From the sequence record NZ_CP118109.1: a stretch of 64,000 nt of DNA; one strand, written 5' to 3'. The notes beneath the pieces were generated by a model. It was not told where the DNA came from. It made no database searches and was given only the letters and a program-made list of their open reading frames with translations. A program made the position numbers and the translations under genes. Of the stretch, positions 3,526 through 51,109 are shown in pieces (the stretch's first letter is position 1; the number at the start of each line of letters is the position of its first letter). This DNA is from a plasmid.

Positions 3526-3782
3526 TGAAAAGATCATTCATGGATATTATCGGACCTGGCTTGGATTTTATTGCAGATCGTTTCATGCTTTGCTTATTAA
3601 CGGCTGCCATTCTGGCTTCACTAGCTATTTTATTAGAACCCTTCGGCATTTTTATTATTCTTGCTGCCGCTGCTTTGTTTACATTTTATATTAGATGGGA
3701 TCTCCGAAGACAAAGTATTGAAGAGATCATTATTGAGGAGGAAGAGATTCAATGGGAAGACAAATCAAAACGACATGCTTAA
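3525..3782 (+). CDS. small membrane protein (2 TM)
   Basis: Hydrophobic segments; ATGA overlap coupling. Confidence 0.5.
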   Translation: MKRSFMDIIGPGLDFIADRFMLCLLTAAILASLAILLEPFGIFIILAAAALFTFYIRWDLRRQSIEEIIIEEEEIQWEDKSKRHA

Positions 3783-4213
3783 AATGTAACGAGACTGTAA
3801 CACTAGACTTTGGTGATGCAAACTATTCTCAAGCTTTAAAGATGGCAGAAAAGCTAGATAGGCGTGCTATGGAATGCCCTGGCTTTCATGTGGAAATCGG
3901 TGGCTGGAATAAATATTGGCAACTAAATCGCATTATTGAGGAAGCATATACTGAGGAAGAAAAGGATATATGTCGTGATATTGTAAGGCGTATCACAATT
4001 CAAATACTCGATGGCAAATATTTAGAGAAGGAACATGAGTTTGGAACTGAGAAAGAGACCGGATTATTCCTTCAAGGCCTTATAGATGGCGGACTAAAAG
4101 AAGATTCCCGCGTTCATGTAAGGCATTACAATTACTTTAAAGAAGAACTCGGAGATTATGAGGCTCCAGCGAAAACAGCACTCACTTATTTAAGCGGAAG
4201 CCATCTGTGTTGA
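3752..4213 (+). CDS. hypothetical protein
   Basis: GAGGAGG RBS; ORF track. Confidence 0.5.
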   Translation: MGRQIKTTCLKCNETVTLDFGDANYSQALKMAEKLDRRAMECPGFHVEIGGWNKYWQLNRIIEEAYTEEEKDICRDIVRRITIQILDGKYLEKEHEFGTEKETGLFLQGLIDGGLKEDSRVHVRHYNYFKEELGDYEAPAKTALTYLSGSHLC

Positions 4214-4267
4214 TCGTCGCTAACGCTCCCATGGCCTTATAGAATTAACATTACGGAGGGAATACTT

Positions 4268-39753: not shown

Positions 39754-40218
39754 ATGGAGCTTATGAAAGCTTATTTATATAATCAATTCCCTTTTCAAAC
39801 TACGGACATTTCTGCAAGAACGATTTCAAACCTGCTGACTTGCAATTGGTTTGAGGATGATCGAAAATCGGCAGCTTATACAATATTGCATCGAAGACTG
39901 TTAATCAGTTCACAGTGGTACAAGATTACATTACGCTTTAAAAAAGAAGGTCCTGAATTATTGTCATTAGATACGCCTGCCCCTTTTATGGTTGTTCTCA
40001 GTGAAGTGAAAGAGGCAGACAATAAAAATTCTCGTTTTGTAGATAAGCAGGTTTATCATTCTAAAACTGTTGGCACTGTATCAGGATACCTTGAGAAAGG
40101 TATACCTGCAGAGCTAATTGATGCAATGATTGAAGAGTTCAGGATCAGTGTGCAATACGGCATTCCTATGGTTGAAATCGCTTCTGCTAATAGTAAACTT
40201 TCAGAAATACCATTTTGA
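39754..40218 (+). CDS. hypothetical protein
   Basis: GGAGG 39741-39745 then ATG 39754. Confidence 0.45.
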   Translation: MELMKAYLYNQFPFQTTDISARTISNLLTCNWFEDDRKSAAYTILHRRLLISSQWYKITLRFKKEGPELLSLDTPAPFMVVLSEVKEADNKNSRFVDKQVYHSKTVGTVSGYLEKGIPAELIDAMIEEFRISVQYGIPMVEIASANSKLSEIPF

Positions 40219-41495
40219 GGAGGAGATTGATTATGAGTTTTCCATCACAAATTAACGCTGCCTTGTCTGGACATACGGCAAGGCGTTTACATAGTTTTCT
40301 TGAGTTCCCTGAAGGCAAGTCAATTACTGCCCTTGATTTTAAAGCTTTTAATGGCAAGACATTAGATGAATTAACTTACTTTGCGAGTGAACGCTACCTA
40401 TATGGCGCCGAAGCAAGTGAGTATATGGCGAAGGAAGCCAGTACTTTCTTTGAAAGAGTTGCCCTTTCTCATTACAAGAGAGAGATGAAGATAAGTAATG
40501 ATGCTTTTTCGCTAGCAGTTGTTGATCCTTATATTCACCCGCAATTCATTGAAGATATCTTTATGTCCTATGATCCTTTTCAAATCCCTGACTTTGAGGC
40601 TGAGATACGGCAGCAACAACAATCGCTTCAATCTACTGCAGATAATTATCTCGATCTGAATCAGCTTGAAATGACGGAGGAAGAAGTTGAAAAGCGCAAA
40701 GTAGATATGGAAGAGCGGATTCAGAAAGCAATCGAAGATAGAAACATTGCATATCGTAAGGCATTACGTGAACAAGAGAAACGTACTTCTGCCTTGCGTG
40801 ATGATAAGCTCCTTTTAACGAATGCTGCTCGTTATTTAAAGCCTGGCGGCATTCTTATCATGCTTACTCCGAAGGAATTTATTGATGCACATATTTCATT
40901 TAAGTTGGCCAACGCCTTTGAAGATATTCAAATTTTCCGCCTGGATGATAGCGAATATGAGAAGCACAGAAAGTGCGTTATTATCGCTAAGAAACGCCTA
41001 AGAACAGAGAAGCAAGATACGCTCCCTTACGAGATCATGCAGACGAAATACAAGCCTTACAAGGATATTCCGGTTATCTCTGTACAAGAGAAACCTCTAT
41101 ATAAAGTTCCTGAAGGAAAGAAAGAAGATGTAGTCAGCTTCCGGATCGGACCGATTACACCAGAAGAAGTTCAACAAGTCATGAGAAAGTCTATGCTCGT
41201 CGAAAACTATGCTGTTCAGCATGGAATAACCCTGGATAATATCACACCAAAACCACCCACGCAGCTGCATAAAGGACATGTATCATTAACCCTTGCAAGT
41301 GGACTGCTAAACGGATATATCGGCACTGGTGCGGATCGCCACTTGGTTAAAGGATCGGTTGTCAAAAAGAATAGTGAGTTTACTGAAGAGGAAGAAACGG
41401 ATCGCGGAACTGAGATTAAGACCGTAGATCGTGAATACTTCCATATCGGAATCAAATATTTAGATCGGCACGGTGATTTTCACAAATTATTATAG
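40215..41495 (+). CDS. hypothetical protein (weak SAM-methyltransferase-like LKPGGILIM motif)
   Basis: ORF track; translationally coupled to downstream giant helicase. Confidence 0.4.
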   Translation: MRRRLIMSFPSQINAALSGHTARRLHSFLEFPEGKSITALDFKAFNGKTLDELTYFASERYLYGAEASEYMAKEASTFFERVALSHYKREMKISNDAFSLAVVDPYIHPQFIEDIFMSYDPFQIPDFEAEIRQQQQSLQSTADNYLDLNQLEMTEEEVEKRKVDMEERIQKAIEDRNIAYRKALREQEKRTSALRDDKLLLTNAARYLKPGGILIMLTPKEFIDAHISFKLANAFEDIQIFRLDDSEYEKHRKCVIIAKKRLRTEKQDTLPYEIMQTKYKPYKDIPVISVQEKPLYKVPEGKKEDVVSFRIGPITPEEVQQVMRKSMLVENYAVQHGITLDNITPKPPTQLHKGHVSLTLASGLLNGYIGTGADRHLVKGSVVKKNSEFTEEEETDRGTEIKTVDREYFHIGIKYLDRHGDFHKLL

Positions 41496-41506
41496 GAGGT
41501 TGTGTC

Positions 41507-44500
41507 ATGGCCACAAGAGTATCGGACAAACTCTTTGAACTCGTCCTGCATAATAAAGGTCGTGGACCTAGAATCAGTACTTTTATTGATTTGATCGTCC
41601 TCGAAAGAATAGGTAGAAGCGCCAATAATATGTATTTGGTTAATACCATGAATGCAGGACCGAAACAAACACTTTTAGCTTATGAGATGAATGAGCATAA
41701 AAGCGGAACGATCTCTCCATTAGGTGAAGGGGTAAGCCGGGATGAAATCATGAACGTCTTTGTTCCAGAGAAAGACTTTTATGACTCATCGGAGCAAAAG
41801 ATTGATGATATCGTTAACACTCTTTATGTAGCAAAAGCTGCCAAGAATGATATCAAGAAGAAGGAAATGCGCATTTTAGAAAACAAGCAACGCGTTGAAT
41901 CAGGCATACAGCCACTAGGGCCACATCCTGAACTTATCTTAGCTTGGGATGGCGATATCTTCTCAGAAGTGTATCGAGTACTGAATGATCGATATAATAC
42001 GCCAATGCTTCCTGAATGGAAGGAAGAGATCGTGCAGGCTTGTTATGATCATGGTCTCCTGACTAACCTTGAAGTAAAGAGCTATGGTAAGGATTATGAT
42101 CTTGAAGCTGCTTTGCTTCGAATCACTGAAGAGAACCTGGAAGCCATTATTTCAGAAGGTATTCGGTCTTATTCCATGCCATTCGCTATTCTGGACGATG
42201 GTCCAACTGAAGAAGAATCTGTACTCAAGAACTGCACGACGTTGGATGTGTATCTCGAGAACTTTGCAGGAGAGCTTGGCCAGCGGATTCAGGAAAACTC
42301 TGTATTGCGCTTTGATCCTACAAAGGAAGAGCATCATCGTTCTTTATATCATGCGAATCTTCATGCAAACACCAAAGGTGTTACCGGATTGTTCCCGCCA
42401 CAAGCAGATGTCGTTATGGGCTGTGCTAATACGATCAAAGACGATGAGGATGACTACGTATTTGTCGTCGGTGAGATGGGATCTGGTAAATCACCAATGG
42501 GCGCCCTAATTCCTTATGTTACTCATGCTATTCGATCAGGCATGGAGAAACCTAAGCCTTATCGTGCACTCGTATTTGTGCCAGCAATAATGGTCGAAAA
42601 ATGGAAGCGGGAGATAGAGGAGCGTATTCCTGATGTGAAAGTATATCAAATCAATAACTGGCGGGATGTACATCGCTTAAGAAATATGCCGTATCGCCCG
42701 ACAGAGATCGAATACTATGTCATGAGTTCTGATGCAGCAAAGCAGACATATCCGATTGAACCGGTTATGGATTTCCGCAAAGGATATGTCAAAAATCATG
42801 ACTATGAAGAAGTCATTGCACAAAAGAGAGCGGGTAAGAAAATCCGCATTCGTATGACCAAAGAAAATTCCTTTAGAAATGGTGCAGCGATAACACGAAC
42901 TGCTATTGGCCCTGAAGCTATGTATTGTCCTCAATGCGGACAGCCGATTAAGAAGACGAAAGAGAAGTACTCTGATGAGCATTACTTCCAGCTTCGCCGC
43001 GGTAAAGACAAATGGGCTTGGAATCAAAACCGTGAAAACTACCGCTGTCGCAATAAAGTCTCAAAAGATGCTCTTCCTAAGCATCAGCGTCTTAAGGGCG
43101 ATTCTCCTGATCAAGAGTGCGGCTTTATTTTTTGGAGTGCTAAGAAGCTCCCTGCTCGCTCTCTCGAGAGAAAGGTATCTCCTGCATGGTATCTGAATAA
43201 ACATCTTCGTCGTGGATTCTTTGAATACTTGATCGCAGATGAGGTTCATGAATACAAGAGTGGAGACTCGGATCGTGCGAATGCCTTCGGTCAGTTGATC
43301 AATCATACAAATAAGCAGATTTTGCTGACAGGTACACTTCTCGGTGGTATGGCAAGAGATATCTTCTATCTTCTGGCTAGACTGGACGCGAAGAAGCTGA
43401 AATTGGAAGGTATTACGTATGATGATGAAAGCCGCTTCGTTGAGAACTATGGCGTATACGAACGTTCTATGACAGAGTTCACCGATGATCGTAAGGGCAA
43501 GAAGAGAAAGAAGCAGTTGCCTGGCGTTTCGCCACTTGTATTCCCGCGCTTCTTAATGAGTAACTGTGCCTTTATCGAGCTGGGTGACCTAGGCTATGCA
43601 CTGCCGCCGTATCGTGAGATTCCAATGTTCATCGAGATGGAAGACGAGCATCGCAGAATGTATGACGAGTTGGAAGAAAACATCATGGATGCGATGGGGC
43701 AAGGCGGGATGAAGCATCTTTCCTCGTATATCACAAAGCTCTATCAGTATGCAGATATGCCATTCAAACACGAGCCGATCACATATCTTGATGAGCATGA
43801 CAAGGTTAAGGAGCTATGTCAGCCGTATAATTTCCCTGAAGATTACACTCCAAGTAAATATTATGCGCTCCAGAGCCTTCTGGAGGAGCAGATCGAGGAA
43901 CGCGGCCGTAAAGTACTTGTCTATGGACGTTTTACTGGCGGAGATAATGGAGTCGATACGTGGCTGTATGAGCGGCTTAAACAGGATGGCTATAATGTTG
44001 GTATCCTACGTTCATCTGGAACCTATGATGGAATGAAGATGCCGAAGCAAGAGGATCGGGAAACCTGGCTGCGTAAGAATATGGAACGCTATGATTGGGA
44101 TGTTCTTGTAACCAACTCTCGTCTGGTCGCTGTTGGTCTTGATCTGCTTATGTTCCCTCATATTCATTTCTATCAAATGGATTACAGTGCTTATAACTAT
44201 ATGCAGGCTTCACGCCGATCTTGGCGGATTAAACAGACTGAGGAAGTTGAAGTTAGTACGTCGGTCTATCGCAATACAATCCAGGCAGATGTGCTAGAAA
44301 GCATTGCGAAGAAGATTGATGCGGCAATGGCTCTGCAAGGCAAGTTCTCTGAAGAGGGTCTTCGTGCAATGGCAGACTCTGGCGATGGCATCAATGCACT
44401 GGCTAAGAAGCTTATGAGTGAAGGAAGACTGGATAATATCAATTCCATTGAAGATCGATGGAAGCGAATCAATGCTTCCTATGAGCAGCTGCAGAACAGC

Positions 44501-44752
44501 TCCTATGAGGGTTATGACTCTTATGAAATGAATCCACTTGGTATTGATAAAGTGCGTGAGATTCAGAAAGGCCTTGTTAATAAGATGCGTATTGATGTGG
44601 CTTCCGGCAAGATTACTCAGAACGATCTAAACAGTTATATGGATCATATCGAAGAAATCTTCCGTGTCGTTGAGGATGTGCGTGAGTATAACAAAGGGCT
44701 TCGTAAGAACGATAGAATCGTGGAAGGACAAGGCGCTTTTGCCTTCTTTTAA
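41507..44752 (+). CDS. large SF2 (DEXH/SNF2-like) helicase with inserted zinc ribbon
   Basis: VVGEMGSGKS (Walker A), LIADEVHEY (DExH), LLTGTLLGG (motif III), QASRRSWR (motif VI), CPQCG...C-x-N-K. Confidence 0.6.
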   Translation: MATRVSDKLFELVLHNKGRGPRISTFIDLIVLERIGRSANNMYLVNTMNAGPKQTLLAYEMNEHKSGTISPLGEGVSRDEIMNVFVPEKDFYDSSEQKIDDIVNTLYVAKAAKNDIKKKEMRILENKQRVESGIQPLGPHPELILAWDGDIFSEVYRVLNDRYNTPMLPEWKEEIVQACYDHGLLTNLEVKSYGKDYDLEAALLRITEENLEAIISEGIRSYSMPFAILDDGPTEEESVLKNCTTLDVYLENFAGELGQRIQENSVLRFDPTKEEHHRSLYHANLHANTKGVTGLFPPQADVVMGCANTIKDDEDDYVFVVGEMGSGKSPMGALIPYVTHAIRSGMEKPKPYRALVFVPAIMVEKWKREIEERIPDVKVYQINNWRDVHRLRNMPYRPTEIEYYVMSSDAAKQTYPIEPVMDFRKGYVKNHDYEEVIAQKRAGKKIRIRMTKENSFRNGAAITRTAIGPEAMYCPQCGQPIKKTKEKYSDEHYFQLRRGKDKWAWNQNRENYRCRNKVSKDALPKHQRLKGDSPDQECGFIFWSAKKLPARSLERKVSPAWYLNKHLRRGFFEYLIADEVHEYKSGDSDRANAFGQLINHTNKQILLTGTLLGGMARDIFYLLARLDAKKLKLEGITYDDESRFVENYGVYERSMTEFTDDRKGKKRKKQLPGVSPLVFPRFLMSNCAFIELGDLGYALPPYREIPMFIEMEDEHRRMYDELEENIMDAMGQGGMKHLSSYITKLYQYADMPFKHEPITYLDEHDKVKELCQPYNFPEDYTPSKYYALQSLLEEQIEERGRKVLVYGRFTGGDNGVDTWLYERLKQDGYNVGILRSSGTYDGMKMPKQEDRETWLRKNMERYDWDVLVTNSRLVAVGLDLLMFPHIHFYQMDYSAYNYMQASRRSWRIKQTEEVEVSTSVYRNTIQADVLESIAKKIDAAMALQGKFSEEGLRAMADSGDGINALAKKLMSEGRLDNINSIEDRWKRINASYEQLQNSSYEGYDSYEMNPLGIDKVREIQKGLVNKMRIDVASGKITQNDLNSYMDHIEEIFRVVEDVREYNKGLRKNDRIVEGQGAFAFF

Positions 44753-47311: not shown

Positions 47312-48652
47312 ATGACTATGACACTTGAACATGATATTGATTTAGATAAGAAGGTTGACCTGCAGCTGGCTGATGATGCGAATAAGGTAAGAAAGATAAC
47401 AATTAAGACTGCTGAGCTATTAAAAGCAGTGAGACGAGCTGTATCCATTGTTAACCATAATCATTCAACTCTTGTATTGCAAAATATATTCTTTGCTACT
47501 ACAGATAACGGAATTATTTTACGAGCTGTAAACGACAGCTTTTCTGTAGAAACAACAATCGATCCGGCACATTGCGTGATTGAAGATGATCCGAGATCTG
47601 TTTTGTTTCCAGCTAAGCGTCTTTTAGATATTGTCAGTAAAATGAGCGGAAAGAATACGACGATCTTTATTCGGGATAATTTCATTCGAATCAAGTCAGG
47701 TCGAGCTAATATGGATATTGGAGTCCAGGATGCAGACGAGTTCCCAAAACTGCCTCAGATCAAGAAAGGAAACACTTTCGAAATCGCTGCTGATGCATTG
47801 CTTGATATGTACACTCGTACAGTATTTGCAACCTCTAAGCTTGAAAGCATGCCTGTTTTGCAGGGCGTACTACATGACATTGAAGATCAAAGATTCCGCT
47901 GTATTGCAACGGATCGTCATCGTTTTGCGCAGGTCTATCATCCGACAACTATTGAGTGTGAGCCAATGCGTGTCAGCGTTCCTGCAATAACAATCAATGA
48001 AGTTATGAAGCATCTGAAAGAAAAGAAGGCTGATACGATCAAGGTTACAGTCAAAGACACTCGTGTAGTATACGATATGAACGATACTGTCCTTTACTCC
48101 CAGGTATTAGAAGGCACATATCCGGATACAAATCGAATCATCCCTACTGGAGCTAAGGCTACTGTGACAGTTCCTAATTCAGAGTTCCTAGGCGCAGTGA
48201 AGCGGGCAGCTATCTTTTTGGATGATTCTAATTCTTCTAAAATAACAATCATGATTGATGGCGAAAAGAACCAGATGCGCATTCAATCACTGGATAGTGA
48301 TGAAGGCACAATGTTAGAAGATATGGTAACACTAAAAGGAGAGGGCGGGTTTGCTTCATCCACGATGAATGGTCGTTATCTGCTTGAGTCCCTAAGCAGG
48401 ATTGGTGGCACTGCTCATGTTGAGATTAAGATGACATCAACAATGCCTTTTCTCTTAAGAGAAGCTAATGCTCTTGAAGGTAATGTAAATGTCGTTGTGC
48501 CTGTTAAGCATAGACTTGATAGCTCGAAATCTATCGAAAACTTTACGTCAAATTATAACGAAGAAGAAGCTGATCCTTTTGCTGGTCGTGCAGAGGAATA
48601 CGCTGAGCAGCAAGCTTCTGAGGCTACTGAAAGCCAAGAAGGAGCAGCTTAA
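47312..48652 (+). CDS. dnaN: DNA polymerase III beta sliding clamp (DnaN-like) with acidic C-terminal extension
   Basis: Three-domain length; ATDRHRFA (DnaN ATDGHRLA), domain-I N-terminal pattern. Confidence 0.75.
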   Translation: MTMTLEHDIDLDKKVDLQLADDANKVRKITIKTAELLKAVRRAVSIVNHNHSTLVLQNIFFATTDNGIILRAVNDSFSVETTIDPAHCVIEDDPRSVLFPAKRLLDIVSKMSGKNTTIFIRDNFIRIKSGRANMDIGVQDADEFPKLPQIKKGNTFEIAADALLDMYTRTVFATSKLESMPVLQGVLHDIEDQRFRCIATDRHRFAQVYHPTTIECEPMRVSVPAITINEVMKHLKEKKADTIKVTVKDTRVVYDMNDTVLYSQVLEGTYPDTNRIIPTGAKATVTVPNSEFLGAVKRAAIFLDDSNSSKITIMIDGEKNQMRIQSLDSDEGTMLEDMVTLKGEGGFASSTMNGRYLLESLSRIGGTAHVEIKMTSTMPFLLREANALEGNVNVVVPVKHRLDSSKSIENFTSNYNEEEADPFAGRAEEYAEQQASEATESQEGAA

Positions 48653-48687
48653 TCAATTTATCTTAAAATAACGCTTGATTTTAGCTT

Positions 48688-48701
48688 GTAACGTGTTATA
48701 A
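48688..48701. promoter_or_regulatory. dyad motif TGTAACGTGTTATA (copy 7a)
   Basis: Recurring motif family. Confidence 0.5.
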
Positions 48702-48709
48702 TTCAAAAT

Positions 48710-48750: not shown

Positions 48751-48969
48751 ATGACAGCAATGACAGTTGAAGATATGTATGCAATGAAACCAGTAGGCAG
48801 TGTGATTCCTTTCTTTAATTTCACCGGATATAAATCAGGTGATTCTGTGCAGGTGGCTGACGGCGCTTATGACTACGACAACAAGGTGTATGTCGTAGAA
48901 GGAAGCCGAATACAGCATATCTGGCATAATGAAGAGAATCAAATGGCATTTGAATTTGAAGGGATTTGA
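48751..48969 (+). CDS. hypothetical protein
   Basis: ORF track. Confidence 0.45.
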   Translation: MTAMTVEDMYAMKPVGSVIPFFNFTGYKSGDSVQVADGAYDYDNKVYVVEGSRIQHIWHNEENQMAFEFEGI

Positions 48970-49208
48970 AGTACATGAACTTCGACGTTCAGCGTTCAAT
49001 ATTTGCAACAAATGCATTCGCTTCAGAATTTCCGGAACAGCATACTCAGCTCTGGAAAGAGTTTGAAGAAAAGGTTCCACAGGTAAATCGGATTGGCTAT
49101 TATGGCGCAGATAATGTGGCTTATATAGGCTGGCTCCGTAGCACGAAGAATGCACTCTTTAATTCATTTTTGCAATCCAATATTGCAACAAAGCATTTTG
49201 ATGCATGA
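48966..49208 (+). CDS. hypothetical protein
   Basis: ORF track. Confidence 0.45.
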   Translation: MKYMNFDVQRSIFATNAFASEFPEQHTQLWKEFEEKVPQVNRIGYYGADNVAYIGWLRSTKNALFNSFLQSNIATKHFDA

Positions 49209-49558
49209 TATAAGAATGTGGTGGCGGAAGAGAGACGCTTAGGTCTAAGGCAGATACGACTCGGTGAGCCCCGGCGCAATTCTCAGAGAGGCGGACTAGA
49301 AACCGCGCTGTAGAAACGTAGAGCCGGATTAGGGCCGTGGGAACCTGTAAGGGGAAGTCAGTTAGGCTGCTACCCGTGATGATGAAATGCTGCTATGCAA
49401 GGGAGAATGGCCCTTGCCCACATTCTTGCTCTCATTCAGCGCACAAGAGTACTGTCCCCCCGGTCTTGAGGACAGCGGCTTGCAACTGAAACCGGTAAAG
49501 GAGCCGACCTTGTGCGTTGAATGAGGGTCTTTTATTCACCCTTTTTTTCCCCTCATCT
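49209..49558 (+). ncRNA. candidate structured non-coding RNA (GC-rich, ends in intrinsic terminator at ~49525-49558)
   Basis: ~350 nt without credible ORF; GC content clearly above flanks; terminal AGGGT-loop-ACCCT + TTTTTTT. Confidence 0.35.
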
Positions 49559-49835
49559 AAGAACTATAAAGGGTAGGTTATCTGATTTAGCCGTAGGAAG
49601 TCTGGAGTTATTCGTTAGTAGGTTTGTAGGCGCTGCAGAGCCGATCACTGAGGACGGTAGCCTGGATGGACTATTCAAAAATCAGACGACAGTATGCAAA
49701 AACTGACGTTACACAACAGCCAGGACCGAACCTGCAAAAAAGGCGATGAAGAGAGGCAAAAGATGGGCCCTCCGCGACAACCTAGGGGTGTGATGAGGGT
49801 TGTCATGATCATACTGGATGTGAGTCTGCCATGAT

Positions 49836-49908
49836 AGCTTAATTGGGAAAGCGCATGACTGAGAATCATGAGATGCGGTTCAATTCCGATGTGGTGGCAT
49901 TCTAGTAT
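49836..49908 (+). tRNA. tRNA-like element (non-canonical; D-arm and anticodon arm fold, loop CUGAGAA; weak T-stem)
   Basis: GCCATGA acceptor, GCTT/AAGC D-stem, CATGA/TCATG anticodon stem, GGTTCAATTCC T-loop; T-stem only 3 bp; no CCA. Confidence 0.3.
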
Positions 49909-50167
49909 GATTCACTTATGTAGGCGCACTGATGATCTTGTCCGGTTCCGCAAGCCACGCTGATGCGGGTAGACTGGTCTTGTATCGAATCTGAGAGAGT
50001 AAATAGTGGATTAGAAACGGGCGGCTTAAATGACCGGCAACGCGTGGCTTGCCGGCATCATAAGCTGGAGTGTTTCGGCTCCGTTTGCATCCCTTGCTTT
50101 GCGACAGCAGTTAGTCACACGAAACGCAGAACCCTTAGTGACTTTCAGTGCGCTACATAGATTTGTC

Positions 50168-50245
50168 CGGAATAGCTTAACGGTAGAGCGCTCGTATAAA
50201 CCCATACGAGAGATCAGAGGTTCGATTCCCGTTTCCGGCTTCTGC
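50168..50245 (+). tRNA. tRNA-like element (GGTTCGATTCC T-loop; aberrant anticodon arm)
   Basis: TCCGGAA/TTCCGGC acceptor pairing 6/7, GCTT/GAGC D-stem, 7-bp anticodon-region stem with 6-nt loop. Confidence 0.25.
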
Positions 50246-50803
50246 ATTTAGCATACAAGTAAAGACCGTAGATCAGCCAGAGACCTCTGTATTATTTACT
50301 TGAAAAGGTGCGTTGTGTACGAAACTTTTCAAGTAAACAATATAGGCAAGTAGCGAAAGCTATTATAAGTCCAATTGTTTTCTGGTGCATGGATGCTTAA
50401 ATGGGATCAGGTGCAACAAGTGCCAATGGCAGGGTAGAAGACTCGAATCGGTTGCTTTAAGTTTCCGTTTATCGGATCGGATGGATGCTTGAACAGTAAT
50501 GTTCTTGATCGTGAAAAACACCTTTCATCCTATATGCTTAAAGACCTGCAGCTTGTATGTTAAATGGAGAAAGTTTGTGGGGCGGATTAAGTCTCAATGG
50601 ATTGGACGAGGGCGAAGCTTACTATTAATTTCAGGTAGGATCTTCAGGCATCGAGCAGTTGGGTGTCTGAAGACTATCTTTAAATCCTATATGCCGAAAG
50701 GCCAAGGCTTAATGACCCTAACGAAAACTTTCCGAGACTCACAGGTGATCTGCAGTCGGGTAAGCGGTAAAGACCGGCGTACATAATATAAAGGAGGCTT
50801 CCT

Positions 50804-51109
50804 ATGAATATCCCTGAAATTAGGCTCCGTAATGGAAAATTAGCTACATATAAATCATCCAGGCAAACGCGGATTCCTGATATGGGTATTAACGAATTAA
50901 CGGAAGTCCATAGTTTTCGTATCCCTTGCCCAGTATGTGATTACAATGAAGATAATATTGCCGTTTCACAAGACGGCATTGTCTTTCTAAATAGCCAGAT
51001 TGTCTGCCGGTTCTGTGGAGTATTTTTCCGTCCGGTAATAGATCCTGCATTCATAAAAGAGCAGCGGCTTGTCCGCTCGACTATATCCCAAAATGAAGCC
51101 GCCAAATAA
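50804..51109 (+). CDS. zinc-binding hypothetical protein
   Basis: AAAGGAGG RBS; CPVCDYNED...CRFCG. Confidence 0.5.
   Translation: MNIPEIRLRNGKLATYKSSRQTRIPDMGINELTEVHSFRIPCPVCDYNEDNIAVSQDGIVFLNSQIVCRFCGVFFRPVIDPAFIKEQRLVRSTISQNEAAK

What the first reader, a model, noticed from the sequence alone, without database searches (positions are those of the whole stretch)
49209..50803. 1.6-kb ORF-free structured-RNA region with tRNA-like elements; candidate large ornate ncRNA (GOLLD/ROOL-class) locus
Between 49209 and 50803 no ORF has coding character; listed ORFs are short, mutually overlapping and basic or odd. The segment 49209-49558 is GC-rich relative to its flanks and ends in an intrinsic terminator. 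Two stretches carry canonical tRNA T-loops: GGTTCAATTCC at ~49877 and GGTTCGATTCC at ~50217. Both also have D-arm and acceptor pairing, but with defective T-stems or an aberrant anticodon arm, so they are tRNA-like rather than standard tRNAs. Further stable hairpins follow, for example an 11-bp stem at 50290-50330, and the motif TCCTATATGC occurs twice. Large ornate ncRNAs such as GOLLD and ROOL are characteristically found in Firmicute phages adjacent to tRNAs. This locus is the obvious place to look for one.
Basis: partly seen in the sequence, partly recalled or inferred. Interest (0 to 1): 0.65.

Follow-up and report, generated by a model that had tools for sequence, protein, structure and literature searches.

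The report
Island of novel structured RNAs
The 1.6-kb gene-free stretch is a tightly packed array of conserved folded RNAs, including two odd tRNA look-alikes and a new roughly 540-base two-domain RNA. It sits on a roughly 215-kb phage-like plasmid of Paenibacillus, resembles the enigmatic GOLLD/ROOL RNAs in setting, and matches no catalogued RNA family.

Summary
Window 49209-50803 is non-coding, GC-enriched and full of conserved secondary structure.

It is a head-to-tail array of six modules on the + strand:
- a tRNA-Leu-derived module (49212-49427);
- a 99-nt three-way junction with kissing loops (49429-49527, plus a conserved 3' extension);
- a weak tRNA (49827-49899);
- a 265-nt RNA (49900-50165);
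- a tRNA-like with an aberrant anticodon arm (50166-50240);
- a roughly 540-nt two-domain RNA, "B" (50243-50779), ending 24 nt before a Zn-ribbon ORF.

Relatives on roughly 200-kb contigs carry the same modules, shuffled and sometimes nested. B is 80% identical to a relative whose flanking genes are only 56-70% identical. B shows no codon periodicity and 30 compensatory pairs. It has 62 G·U against 5 A·C pairs, so the fold belongs to the + strand.

Covariance models built without the test sequence gain 22 bits (three-way junction) and about 50 bits (B domain 2) over sequence-only models.

Rfam 15 reports only the two tRNA hits: no GOLLD, ROOL, intron, RNase P or tmRNA. So there is a large ornate RNA next to tRNA-like elements, but it is not GOLLD or ROOL. 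The proposed terminator is not conserved. Function is unknown. I infer a co-transcribed, processed RNA island.

The parts
48675..48702 (+). Promoter-like site (TTGATT-16-TATAAT with an upstream TG), before the two small ORFs that precede the RNA island. It is a candidate start of the transcript that carries the island.
   Evidence: One search gives a 10/12 match. The number of such sites in the region is not above chance, so this is an inference only. The upstream ORF stop (49208) is only 4 nt from module M1, which leaves no room for a promoter there.
49212..49427 (+). Module M1, a tRNA-Leu-derived RNA. It has a 10-bp acceptor-like stem (AAGAATGTGG/CCACATTCTT) and a type-II D-arm (TGGCGGAAGAGAGACGC). 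The anticodon arm is reduced to CTTA-GGTC-TAAG. The variable region is about 150 nt and branched. The T-arm-like hairpin is CAAGGG-AGAATGG-CCCTTG.
   Evidence: Sequence is and the fold. Homologue L012 3905-4066 has the same D-arm, a CTTA-GAGA-TAAG mini-arm, covarying stems (GCAG/CTGC becomes GTCGC/GCGAC) and a T-loop-like TGCAAAT. ARAGORN and Rfam do not call it a tRNA.
49429..49527 (+). Module 'A-core', a 99-nt three-way junction. P1 is a 19-bp closing stem (49429-49447 with 49509-49527). P2 is CTGTCC/GGACAG and P3 is CGGCT/AGCCG. A kissing interaction joins the two hairpin loops (CCGGT at 49460 with ACCGG at 49491).
   Evidence: It is about 98% identical to L002. L010 2575-2682 keeps every helix through compensatory changes: P2 CTTTCC/GGAAAG, P3 ATGAC/GTCAT, kissing pair CTGGC/GCCAG. 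A model built from window and L002 only scores L010 at 47.4 bits (E 2e-9), against 25.8 bits for the sequence-only model.
49528..49665 (+). Conserved 3' extension of A-core. It contains a small GGGT/ACCC hairpin and the segment CCCTCAT (49550-49556), which is a second complement of the P1 3' strand ATGAGGG (49521-49527). It also contains the conserved blocks AAGGGTAGGTTA and GCTGCAGA..ACGGTA.
   Evidence: nhmmer matches in L002, L010 and L012 have E values from 1e-40 to 5e-10. The alternative helix covaries (L010 ATGGGGG/CCCCCAT).
49827..49899 (+). tRNA-1, a weak 72-73-nt tRNA with anticodon GAG (Leu) but no long variable arm. It has non-canonical pairs in the acceptor and T stems. An 11-nt inverted repeat (49808-49818 and 49901-49911) brackets it.
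   Evidence: See ARAGORN, Rfam RF00005 at 44.3 bits and the inverted repeat. I found no counterpart in L002, L010, L011 or L012.
49900..50165 (+). Module C, a structured RNA of about 265 nt lying between the two tRNA-shaped elements.
   Evidence: The homologue is L010 4157-4398 (nhmmer E 1.5e-28). The two-sequence alifold is at 65% identity and has 70 pairs, 12 with changes on both sides and none broken. It has no Rfam hit.
50166..50240 (+). tRNA-like 2. The acceptor, D and T arms are normal (GGTTCGATTCC). The anticodon arm is aberrant, with a 7-bp stem and the 6-nt loop AAACCC. It abuts module B.
   Evidence: Rfam scores it at 36.9 bits with a 10-nt insert in the anticodon loop. It is 83% identical to L002 12481-12556, whose loop is 7 nt in the predicted fold and whose loop sequence differs.
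50243..50571 (+). Module B, domain 1. It has a 17-bp closing stem (about 50245-50260 with about 50553-50569), the AAAGACCGT motif, a variable hairpin (50287-50345) and a GNRA-capped hairpin. Its conserved core includes GGTGCAACAAGTGCCAATGGCAGG and GAATCGGTTGC.
   Evidence: See alignments A2, A3 and A5 and the pair counts. Family-wide, the helix G(A/G)CCG with CGG(U/C)U covaries A-U to G-C across 7 modules in 6 genomes. Related shorter modules are in L010, L011, L012 and L009.
50576..50779 (+). Module B, domain 2. It has 58 pairs in two nested multi-helix arms, an invariant GCCGAAAGGC (GAAA tetraloop) hairpin, and a 3' hairpin ending 24 nt before the start codon of the next ORF.
   Evidence: Model R3 was built from window and L002 only. 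It scores L007 543-747 at 133.2 bits (E 1e-42) with 4 non-canonical pairs, against 83.2 bits for a sequence-only HMM. It is not found in L009-L013 or L016.
50804..51109 (+). Neighbouring gene, a 101-aa CPxC...CRxC zinc-ribbon protein of an orphan family. A closing-stem module lies directly upstream of its homologue in 5 related genomes. Seven other fetched loci, including two of the closer relatives (L011, L012), have the ORF without one.
   Evidence: Homologues P0024-P0042 are, and loci. It has no Pfam hit and no significant PDB sequence match. The AF2 model has pLDDT 90.7, but Foldseek finds nothing against PDB.

Best explanation
The region is an 'RNA island' on a roughly 215-kb phage-like plasmid. 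It is a head-to-tail array of at least six structured non-coding RNAs, read from the + strand as part of the same transcript as the flanking small genes.

**Processing (inferred).** The tRNA-shaped elements (M1, tRNA-1, tRNA-like 2) would be cut by the host tRNA-processing enzymes RNase P and RNase Z. The 17-19-bp closing stems of A-core and B would resemble the RNase III processing stalks of rRNA precursors. Stable RNAs would be released.

**The largest product.** B, about 540 nt in two domains, is a new large ornate RNA. By its setting (a tRNA-like neighbourhood on a large phage-like element, with variable peripheral inserts that in a relative include a nested tRNA-like module), it most likely acts in trans as a folded RNA particle, as is presumed for GOLLD and ROOL, rather than as an mRNA leader.

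**Shown.** The region is non-coding. The structure is conserved, covaries and is strand-specific. The island is modular. No catalogued family matches.

**Inferred.** Co-transcription, processing by RNase P, RNase Z and RNase III, and trans action. The biochemical function remains unknown.
For: **Non-coding and under selection.**
- B is 80% identical to L002, while DnaN and three other flanking genes are 56-70% identical.
- B shows no codon periodicity, has indels that are not multiples of 3, and has stops in all frames in L002.

**Structure of B.**
- Across 3 sequences and 148 pairs, 95.2% of cells pair, against 32-40% when the partners are slid.
- 30 pairs change on both sides, against 11.7 +/- 2.6 in shuffles (0 of 500 reach 30) and 2-6 when slid.

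**Strand.**
- There are 62 G·U cells against 5 A·C cells.
- The + strand MFE is 21-36 kcal/mol lower than the - strand MFE.

**Independent tests.**
- Model R1 gains 21.6 bits on L010 over the sequence-only model.
- Model R3 gains about 50 bits on L007 over nhmmer.
- The A-core kissing loops covary.
- Module C has 12 double changes and no broken pair.

**Modularity.** The same modules recur in L002, L007, L009, L010, L011 and L012 in different orders. Small ORFs are interspersed in L002 and L012. M1 is nested inside a B-domain-1 homologue in L012.

**Packing and transcription.**
- Adjacent modules are separated by 0-2 nt in most cases; the exception is about 160 nt of unassigned sequence between the A-core extension and tRNA-1.
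- No + strand terminator is detected inside the island.
- Genuine tRNAs (58-73 bits) sit in the same island in L012.

**Context.**
- The surrounding genes are RecA, ThyX, UvrD, DnaG, SNF2 helicases, DnaN, NrdG-like and thymidylate kinase.
- The relative is listed as a viral genome in IMG/VR.
Against: - There are no expression data, so transcript ends and processing are unverified.
- The comparative set is small: 3 full-length B copies, effectively 2 A-core lineages, and 2 C copies. The structures for B and C were derived from the same alignments on which the pairs were counted.
- B ends 24 nt before the start codon of the Zn-ribbon ORF. A closing-stem module sits directly upstream of that ORF's homologue in five genomes, which would also fit a cis-acting leader.
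- The promoter assignment is weak, because promoter-like sites are not above chance.
- No structural phage genes were seen in this window, so 'phage' rests on relatives and on replication and nucleotide-metabolism genes. NCBI labels the replicon a plasmid.
Confidence: 0.55

Rival explanations
1. B, and the shorter closing-stem modules in relatives, is a cis-acting 5' leader that controls expression of the downstream zinc-ribbon ORF. It would be a riboswitch-like or protein-binding leader, possibly autoregulated by the ORF product.
For: - B ends 24 nt before the ORF start codon, just upstream of its ribosome-binding site, in window, L002 and L007.
- A closing-stem module also sits directly upstream of the ORF homologue in L009 and L010.
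- No promoter or terminator separates B from the ORF.
- A-core has a covarying alternative helix typical of switches.
Against: - ORF homologues in L011, L012 and L013-L018 have no such module upstream.
- In L012 the B-domain-1 homologue precedes an unrelated 101-aa ORF.
- The ribosome-binding site lies outside the conserved fold, and I saw no conserved anti-Shine-Dalgarno segment in the three-way alignment.
- At about 540 nt with 17-19-bp closing stems, B is far larger and more rigid than known leaders.
- The ORF has no recognisable RNA-binding fold.
Confidence: 0.2
2. B is a highly divergent member of the GOLLD or ROOL class that the Rfam models fail to detect.
For: - The genomic setting is the same: a large phage-like element next to tRNA and tRNA-like genes (PMC12286853, PMC5737381).
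- B's length of about 540 nt is close to the ROOL average of 581 nt (PMC5737381).
- A tRNA-like element is nested in a variable region in L012. tRNAs are reported in the GOLLD linker (PMC12286853).
Against: - cmscan against all 4227 Rfam 15 families finds nothing beyond tRNA and chance miRNA/snoRNA hits. This was run with permissive filters at E<=10 on the 2.1-kb region and at E<=1 on four related loci.
Confidence: 0.04
3. The structures act at the DNA level. They could be a replication origin, a single-strand initiation site or recombination sites near the replication genes, with the long inverted repeats serving as protein-binding or cruciform elements (MITE-like or attC-like).
For: - The locus lies in a replication-gene cluster (DnaN, primase, helicases) with a tyrosine recombinase (MrpR) about 4 kb downstream.
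- The closing stems are 17-20-bp inverted repeats whose sequence (..CAGCGCACAAG..) recurs in different module types.
Against: - The pairing is strongly strand-asymmetric, with 62 G·U against 5 A·C cells.
- The region contains GNRA tetraloops, tRNA D- and T-arms and covarying kissing loops.
- It has no iterons or tandem repeats.
- The closing-stem word does not recur elsewhere in the 64-kb window above chance.
Confidence: 0.07
4. The region is a decaying tRNA island. On this view the tRNA-like elements are pseudogenes and the rest is spacer with fortuitous structure.
For: - The two tRNA hits are weak (44 and 37 bits) with defective stems or loops.
- tRNA-1 has no counterpart in the relatives.
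- Island content varies widely between genomes.
Against: - The non-coding modules are more conserved than the neighbouring protein genes.
- They retain pairing through compensatory changes.
Confidence: 0.05

Closest known systems
ROOL RNA (Rfam RF03087)
   Same: - It is a large, elaborately folded bacterial/phage ncRNA averaging 581 nt.
- It is encoded in phages and prophages, often near tRNA islands.
- It has no known protein partner and no known function (PMC5737381, PMC12286853).
- B is about 540 nt and multi-domain. It sits next to tRNA-like genes on a large phage-like replicon.
   Different: - B does not match the ROOL covariance model even at E<=10.
- The B fold predicted here has two domains, each closed by a long stem. 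Only nested (pseudoknot-free) folds were predicted for B, so pseudoknots in B were not tested.
- B's distribution is narrow: full-length B was retrieved from three genomes, and B-type modules from a handful of roughly 200-kb Paenibacillus-type elements.
GOLLD RNA (Rfam RF01998)
   Same: - It is a phage or prophage RNA near tRNAs.
- It has a variable region that can contain tRNAs (PMC12286853). This mirrors the tRNA-like module nested in the B-domain-1 homologue of L012.
- It combines a conserved part with a variable part.
   Different: - GOLLD is typically longer than 800 nt with a universally conserved 3' domain.
- B does not match the GOLLD model.
- Domain 2 of B is absent from several relatives that keep domain-1-like modules.
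Phage tRNA islands and tRNA-like scaffolds processed by RNase P / RNase Z
   Same: - The genes are head-to-tail and tRNA-shaped, on the same strand, with almost no spacers.
- Genuine tRNAs occupy the same island in L012.
   Different: - In the window the tRNA-shaped elements have aberrant anticodon arms or giant insertions.
- Most of the island is non-tRNA structured RNA.
rRNA-operon processing stalks (RNase III substrates)
   Same: - Long (17-19 bp or more) helices are formed by the 5' and 3' flanks of a structured RNA embedded in a longer transcript.
   Different: - This is an analogy only. No cleavage data exist.
- The stems contain G·U pairs and a conserved sequence word whose role is unknown.

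Membership tests
GOLLD RNA (RF01998) | Match to the family covariance model (conserved 3' domain) | tested here: not met
   cmscan against Rfam 15 gives no GOLLD hit. This was run at gathering threshold on the window, at E<=10 on 48900-51000 and at E<=1 on L007 and L010-L012.
GOLLD RNA (RF01998) | Length typically above 800 nt | tested here: not met
   B is about 540 nt (50243-50779). The 1.6-kb region as a whole consists of separable modules.
GOLLD / ROOL (shared context) | Encoded in a phage or prophage, near tRNA genes | tested here: met
   Two Rfam tRNA hits lie inside the island. The relative L012 carries 4 good tRNAs in its island. The relative is listed in IMG/VR. Replication and nucleotide-metabolism genes hit PHROGs families. 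NCBI nevertheless labels the replicon a plasmid.
ROOL RNA (RF03087) | Match to the family covariance model | tested here: not met
   No ROOL hit appears.
ROOL RNA (RF03087) | [quoted passage not shown] | not testable with these tools
   Only nested consensus folds from 3 sequences are available. They are too few to define the topology or pseudoknots of B.
tRNA (RF00005), element 49828-49899 | Score above the gathering threshold and a cloverleaf with a 7-nt anticodon loop | tested here: met
   It scores 44.3 bits against a threshold of 29. ARAGORN calls tRNA-Leu(GAG). The acceptor and T stems contain non-canonical pairs, and a Leu anticodon without a long variable arm is atypical. Function as a tRNA is doubtful.
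tRNA (RF00005), element 50166-50240 | Canonical 5-bp anticodon stem with a 7-nt loop | tested here: not met
   It scores 36.9 bits, but the model needs a 10-nt insert in the anticodon loop. The MFE fold gives a 7-bp stem with a 6-nt loop. Default ARAGORN does not call it.
Rho-independent terminator at about 49524-49547 | GC-rich stem of at least 5 bp followed by a U-run, conserved in relatives | tested here: not met
   It is not reported by the scan. The stem is 4 bp, and the T-run is missing in L002, L010 and L012.
Group I / group II introns, RNase P RNA, tmRNA, 6S, Y RNA | Match to the Rfam models; for tmRNA, also an ARAGORN call | tested here: not met
   
Cis-regulatory leader of the Zn-ribbon ORF | Consistent linkage of the RNA to homologues of the downstream gene | tested here: inconclusive
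   The linkage is present in window, L002, L007, L009 and L010. It is absent in L011, L012 and L013-L018. In L012 the module lies upstream of a different ORF.

The most novel reading that the evidence does not exclude
The locus encodes a previously undescribed family of large two-domain RNAs (B, about 540 nt). It also encodes companion RNAs: the kissing-loop three-way junction, module C and the tRNA-Leu-derived M1. Together they form a modular, recombining 'RNA island' in roughly 200-kb Paenibacillus-type phage-plasmids. In this island, tRNA-like units and long closing stems serve as processing and insertion points. B would be a third, independent class of phage-borne ornate RNA alongside GOLLD and ROOL, possibly forming higher-order RNA particles or acting catalytically.
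Probability: 0.5. Interest if true: 0.75.

Novelty: new variant of a known kind. Interest (0 to 1): 0.62.

Why it matters
Very few RNA classes are large and ornate, and their functions are still unknown. GOLLD and ROOL were recently shown to form RNA-only nanocages (PMC12286853).

This locus offers an independent class in the same ecological niche, a large phage-like element next to tRNA-type genes:
- It comes from a cultivable host, Paenibacillus urinalis.
- Its domain boundaries are clean.
- A relative carries a naturally nested tRNA-like insert.

It therefore gives a new experimental handle on what such RNAs do. It also lets one test whether association with tRNA-processing signals is a general design principle.

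The small kissing-loop three-way junction, with its covarying alternative helix, is a compact candidate for structural and ligand studies.

Tried and rejected
**Searches for more homologues**
- Exact or degenerate DNA patterns from conserved blocks were scanned against three collections.
  - IMG/VR returned only the contig already known (L004 = L002/L003), or nothing.
  - GTDB genomes returned two hits, L005 and L006. They match only the 21-mer, so they are chance hits.
  - JGI metagenomes returned L008, a high-GC coding sequence, also a chance hit.
- The protein-based IMG/VR scans with DnaN and with the ORF alignment gave nothing new.
- BLASTN of the window island and of the L010 and L012 islands found no module match in INPHARED phages or PLSDB plasmids. 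The only hit was a tRNA-Met.
- The closest relative, Paenibacillus sp. TCA20 (DnaN 88% identical), could not be retrieved. P0030's contigs had no DNA available.

**Function of the downstream ORF**
- Pfam, a PDB profile search, and a confident AF2 model searched with Foldseek against PDB were all uninformative.

**Ideas considered and dropped**
- *attC-like or MITE-like inverted repeats.* A GTTRRRY-like word occurs in some closing stems but is not conserved in L009 or L010, and the pairing is strand-specific.
- *An 11-nt GAAA-tetraloop receptor in domain 2.* The CCCTAAC and ATGG blocks are not opposite each other in the supported fold.
- *Hammerhead or purine-riboswitch identity for A-core.* The junction sequences do not fit, and there is no Rfam hit.

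**Other dead ends**
- The MAFFT alignment of M1 with its L012 homologue failed because of the large insertion. The comparison was therefore made from the individual folds.
- Literature searches for a described equivalent found nothing relevant.
Full report
**Source and context**

The DnaN-like protein encoded at 47312-48652 is identical to an NCBI protein annotated 'DNA polymerase III subunit beta (plasmid) [Paenibacillus urinalis]', found on a 214,846-bp contig.

All large ORFs in the window are on the + strand. They include RecA, ThyX, UvrD, DnaG primase, two SNF2 helicases, a DUF6094 methyltransferase, an NrdG-like protein, thymidylate kinase and an MrpR recombinase. I saw no virion genes in this window.

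The nearest retrievable relative has DnaN 59% identical. It is a 213-kb metagenome contig (L002 = L003) that IMG/VR lists as a viral genome (L004). I therefore treat the replicon as a large phage-like plasmid.

**Checking the observation**

The region 49209-50803 holds only short overlapping ORFs. GC rises to 0.54 at 49200-49500, against about 0.40 in the flanks.

Rfam reports exactly two hits in the whole window. Both are tRNA: 49828-49899 (44.3 bits) and 50166-50240 (36.9 bits). ARAGORN calls only the first, as tRNA-Leu GAG.
- The first has mismatches in the acceptor and T stems.
- The second needs a 10-nt insert in the anticodon loop. It folds with a 7-bp stem and a 6-nt loop.

The hairpin at 50287-50345 and the repeated ATCCTATATGC... 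motif are real.

The proposed intrinsic terminator is not supported.
- No + strand terminator is detected in the island.
- The T-run after the small GGGT/ACCC hairpin is not conserved in relatives.

**The region is non-coding but conserved**

I compared the window with L002.

| Segment | DNA identity | Mismatches by codon position | Indels |
|---|---|---|---|
| DnaN | 62% | 127/100/281 | multiples of 3 |
| Two small upstream ORFs | 56% and 66% | third-position excess | multiples of 3 |
| Zn-ribbon ORF | 70% | third-position excess | multiples of 3 |
| 548-nt element B | 80% | 24/40/43 | 1-6 nt |

All three frames of the L002 copy of B contain stops. Rfam searches with permissive thresholds on the region (E<=10) and on four related loci (E<=1) return only tRNAs and chance hits. 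GOLLD, ROOL, introns, RNase P, tmRNA and the other catalogued families are therefore excluded as far as covariance models can tell.

**Finding relatives**

DNA-pattern scans of the public collections gave only chance hits. The conserved 101-aa zinc-ribbon ORF directly downstream (50804-51109) gave a path instead. A profile search found 19 homologues, mostly on 185-214-kb contigs. Their loci were fetched as L007 and L009-L018.

The synteny is DnaN, two small ORFs, a variable non-coding island, then the Zn-ribbon ORF. It holds in window, L002, L009, L010 and L011. L012 has a larger island containing four good tRNAs. More distant relatives (L013-L018) lack the island at this position.

**Anatomy: six modules packed head to tail on the + strand**

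*1. M1 (49212-49427).* This is a tRNA-Leu-derived module.
- It has a 10-bp acceptor-like stem, a type-II D-arm and an anticodon arm shrunk to a 4-bp stem with a tetraloop.
- It has a branched variable region of about 150 nt and a T-arm-like hairpin.
- Its homologue in L012 (3905-4066) keeps these features with covarying stems.

*2. A-core (49429-49527).* This is a three-way junction with a 19-bp closing stem.
- The L010 homologue keeps P1, P2 and P3 and a loop-loop kissing helix, all through compensatory changes.
- A covariance model built only from window and L002 scores L010 at 47.4 bits. The sequence-only model scores 25.8 bits.
- A conserved 3' extension runs to about 49665. It contains a second, covarying complement of the P1 3' strand, which could form an alternative helix.

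*3. tRNA-1 (49827-49899).* It is window-specific and is bracketed by an 11-nt inverted repeat.

*4. Module C (49900-50165).* Its homologue is in L010 (E 1.5e-28). The consensus fold has 70 pairs, 12 with changes on both sides and none broken.

*5. tRNA-like 2 (50166-50240).* It is 83% identical to L002 12481-12556, but the anticodon-loop sequence differs. This argues against a decoding role.

*6. B (50243-50779).* It has two domains, each closed by a long helix.
- On the three-sequence alignment (window, L002, L007), the consensus fold has 148 pairs and 95.2% of cells pair, against 32-40% with slid partners.
- Thirty pairs change on both sides. Shuffles give 11.7 +/- 2.6, with 0 of 500 reaching 30. 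Slid controls give 2-6.
- That structure was derived from the same alignment, so I ran an independent test. Model R3 was built from window and L002 only. It scores the L007 copy of domain 2 at 133.2 bits with four non-canonical pairs out of 58. A sequence-only HMM scores 83.2 bits.
- The pairing is strand-specific, with 62 G·U cells against 5 A·C cells. The + strand folds 21-36 kcal/mol better than the - strand.

**A wider module family**

Domain 1 of B belongs to a family whose members share three features:
- a long closing stem;
- an AAAG(A/G)CCGT motif immediately after the stem;
- a partner CGG(T/C)T motif further downstream.

The implied helix switches A-U to G-C in two of seven modules, without a mismatch. 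Shorter members occur in L010 (4745-4985), L011 (about 3675-3945), L012 (3598-3866) and, in miniature, L009 (4833-4984).

In L012 a full domain-1 homologue (3866-4226) carries the M1-type tRNA-like module nested in the position of the window's variable hairpin. L010 and L012 also contain tRNA-shaped genes with 31-182-nt insertions in the anticodon region.

The closing-stem word (..CAGCGCACAAG..) is shared between A-core and some B-type modules. It does not recur elsewhere in the window above chance.

**Interpretation**

The data show a co-linear array of selected, strand-specific RNA structures.

Three observations point to one transcript. Adjacent modules are mostly 0-2 nt apart, apart from about 160 nt of unassigned sequence before tRNA-1. 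No internal terminator is detected. The island is tightly joined to the flanking ORFs. I therefore infer a single transcript, possibly starting at the promoter-like site at 48675-48702 (weak evidence). Stable RNAs would be released from it by tRNA-processing enzymes at the tRNA-shaped units and by a double-strand-specific nuclease at the long closing stems. This processing is an inference from anatomy and was not tested.

B resembles ROOL and GOLLD in size, complexity and setting, including a nested tRNA-like insert in a relative. Those RNAs are encoded in phages near tRNA islands and tolerate tRNAs in a linker (PMC12286853, PMC5737381). B fails the only testable membership criterion, a match to the covariance model.

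**Rival explanations**
- *Cis-acting leader for the Zn-ribbon ORF.* This is the main rival. It is favoured by adjacency in five genomes. It is weakened by ORF homologues without the RNA, by a B-type module upstream of an unrelated ORF in L012, and by a ribosome-binding site that lies outside the fold.
- *DNA-level element.* This is disfavoured by the strand asymmetry and the absence of iterons.
- *Decaying tRNA island.* This is disfavoured by conservation that exceeds that of the neighbouring genes.

**Limits**
- Only three divergent full-length B sequences and two lineages of A-core and of C were retrievable.
- The closest relative (TCA20) could not be fetched.
- There are no expression data.
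- The detailed topology of B domain 1 is unsettled. Two alternative pairings for the AAAGACCGT motif appear.
- The function of every module is unknown.

Noticed in passing
window 49521-49527, 49550-49556 and 49429-49435: Three segments co-vary across genomes: the 5' strand of the A-core closing stem, its 3' strand ATGAGGG, and a downstream CCCTCAT. In L010 the last two read ATGGGGG and CCCCCAT. This gives two mutually exclusive helices, as in a riboswitch expression platform.
   Followed up: partly
L012 3866-4226, with the insert at 3905-4066: A tRNA-Leu-like module (an M1 homologue) is nested inside a homologue of B domain 1. It sits at the position of the window's variable hairpin. This is a natural 'tRNA-in-large-RNA' arrangement like that reported for the GOLLD linker.
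   Followed up: partly
L010 2763-3037; L012 3110-3310 and 3481-3607: These are tRNA-shaped genes with insertions of 182, 121 and 31 nt in the anticodon region. Only relaxed ARAGORN finds them. The insertions are too short for group I introns, and their nature is unknown.
   Followed up: no
window 49808-49818 and 49901-49911: An 11-nt inverted repeat brackets tRNA-1 and extends its acceptor stem. This suggests that the tRNA is embedded in a larger helix.
   Followed up: no
window 50527-50546 and 50684-50703: A 20-nt direct repeat (ATCCTATATGC..AAAG.CC, 85% identical) occurs once in each domain of B. It is only weakly conserved in L002 and L007.
   Followed up: partly
window 50804-51109: The zinc-ribbon protein (CPVC...CRFC) belongs to an orphan family of about 20 members, most of them on contigs of roughly 110-214 kb. 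The AlphaFold model is confident (pLDDT 90.7), but it has no Pfam hit, no significant PDB sequence match and no PDB fold match.
   Followed up: yes
window 47312-48652: The DnaN sliding-clamp homologue is 446 aa long. It carries an acidic C-terminal tail of about 60 aa that is not seen in typical clamps of about 370-380 aa.
   Followed up: no
window 40215-44752: A DUF6094 methyltransferase (40215-41495) lies next to a 1081-aa SNF2/ResIII helicase (41507-44752). This pair is typical of anti-restriction modules of large mobile elements and is conserved upstream of DnaN in L002, L009 and L011.
   Followed up: no
L007 3287-3643: A CsrA (carbon storage regulator, RNA-binding) homologue is encoded about 2.2 kb downstream of the B RNA on this related contig.
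   Followed up: no
L002 12584-13243 and 13394-13666; L012 1620-2228 and 2682-2945: Two small protein genes (219 aa with CxxC pairs, and about 90 aa) are interspersed among the RNA modules in two relatives. They are absent from the window's island.
   Followed up: partly
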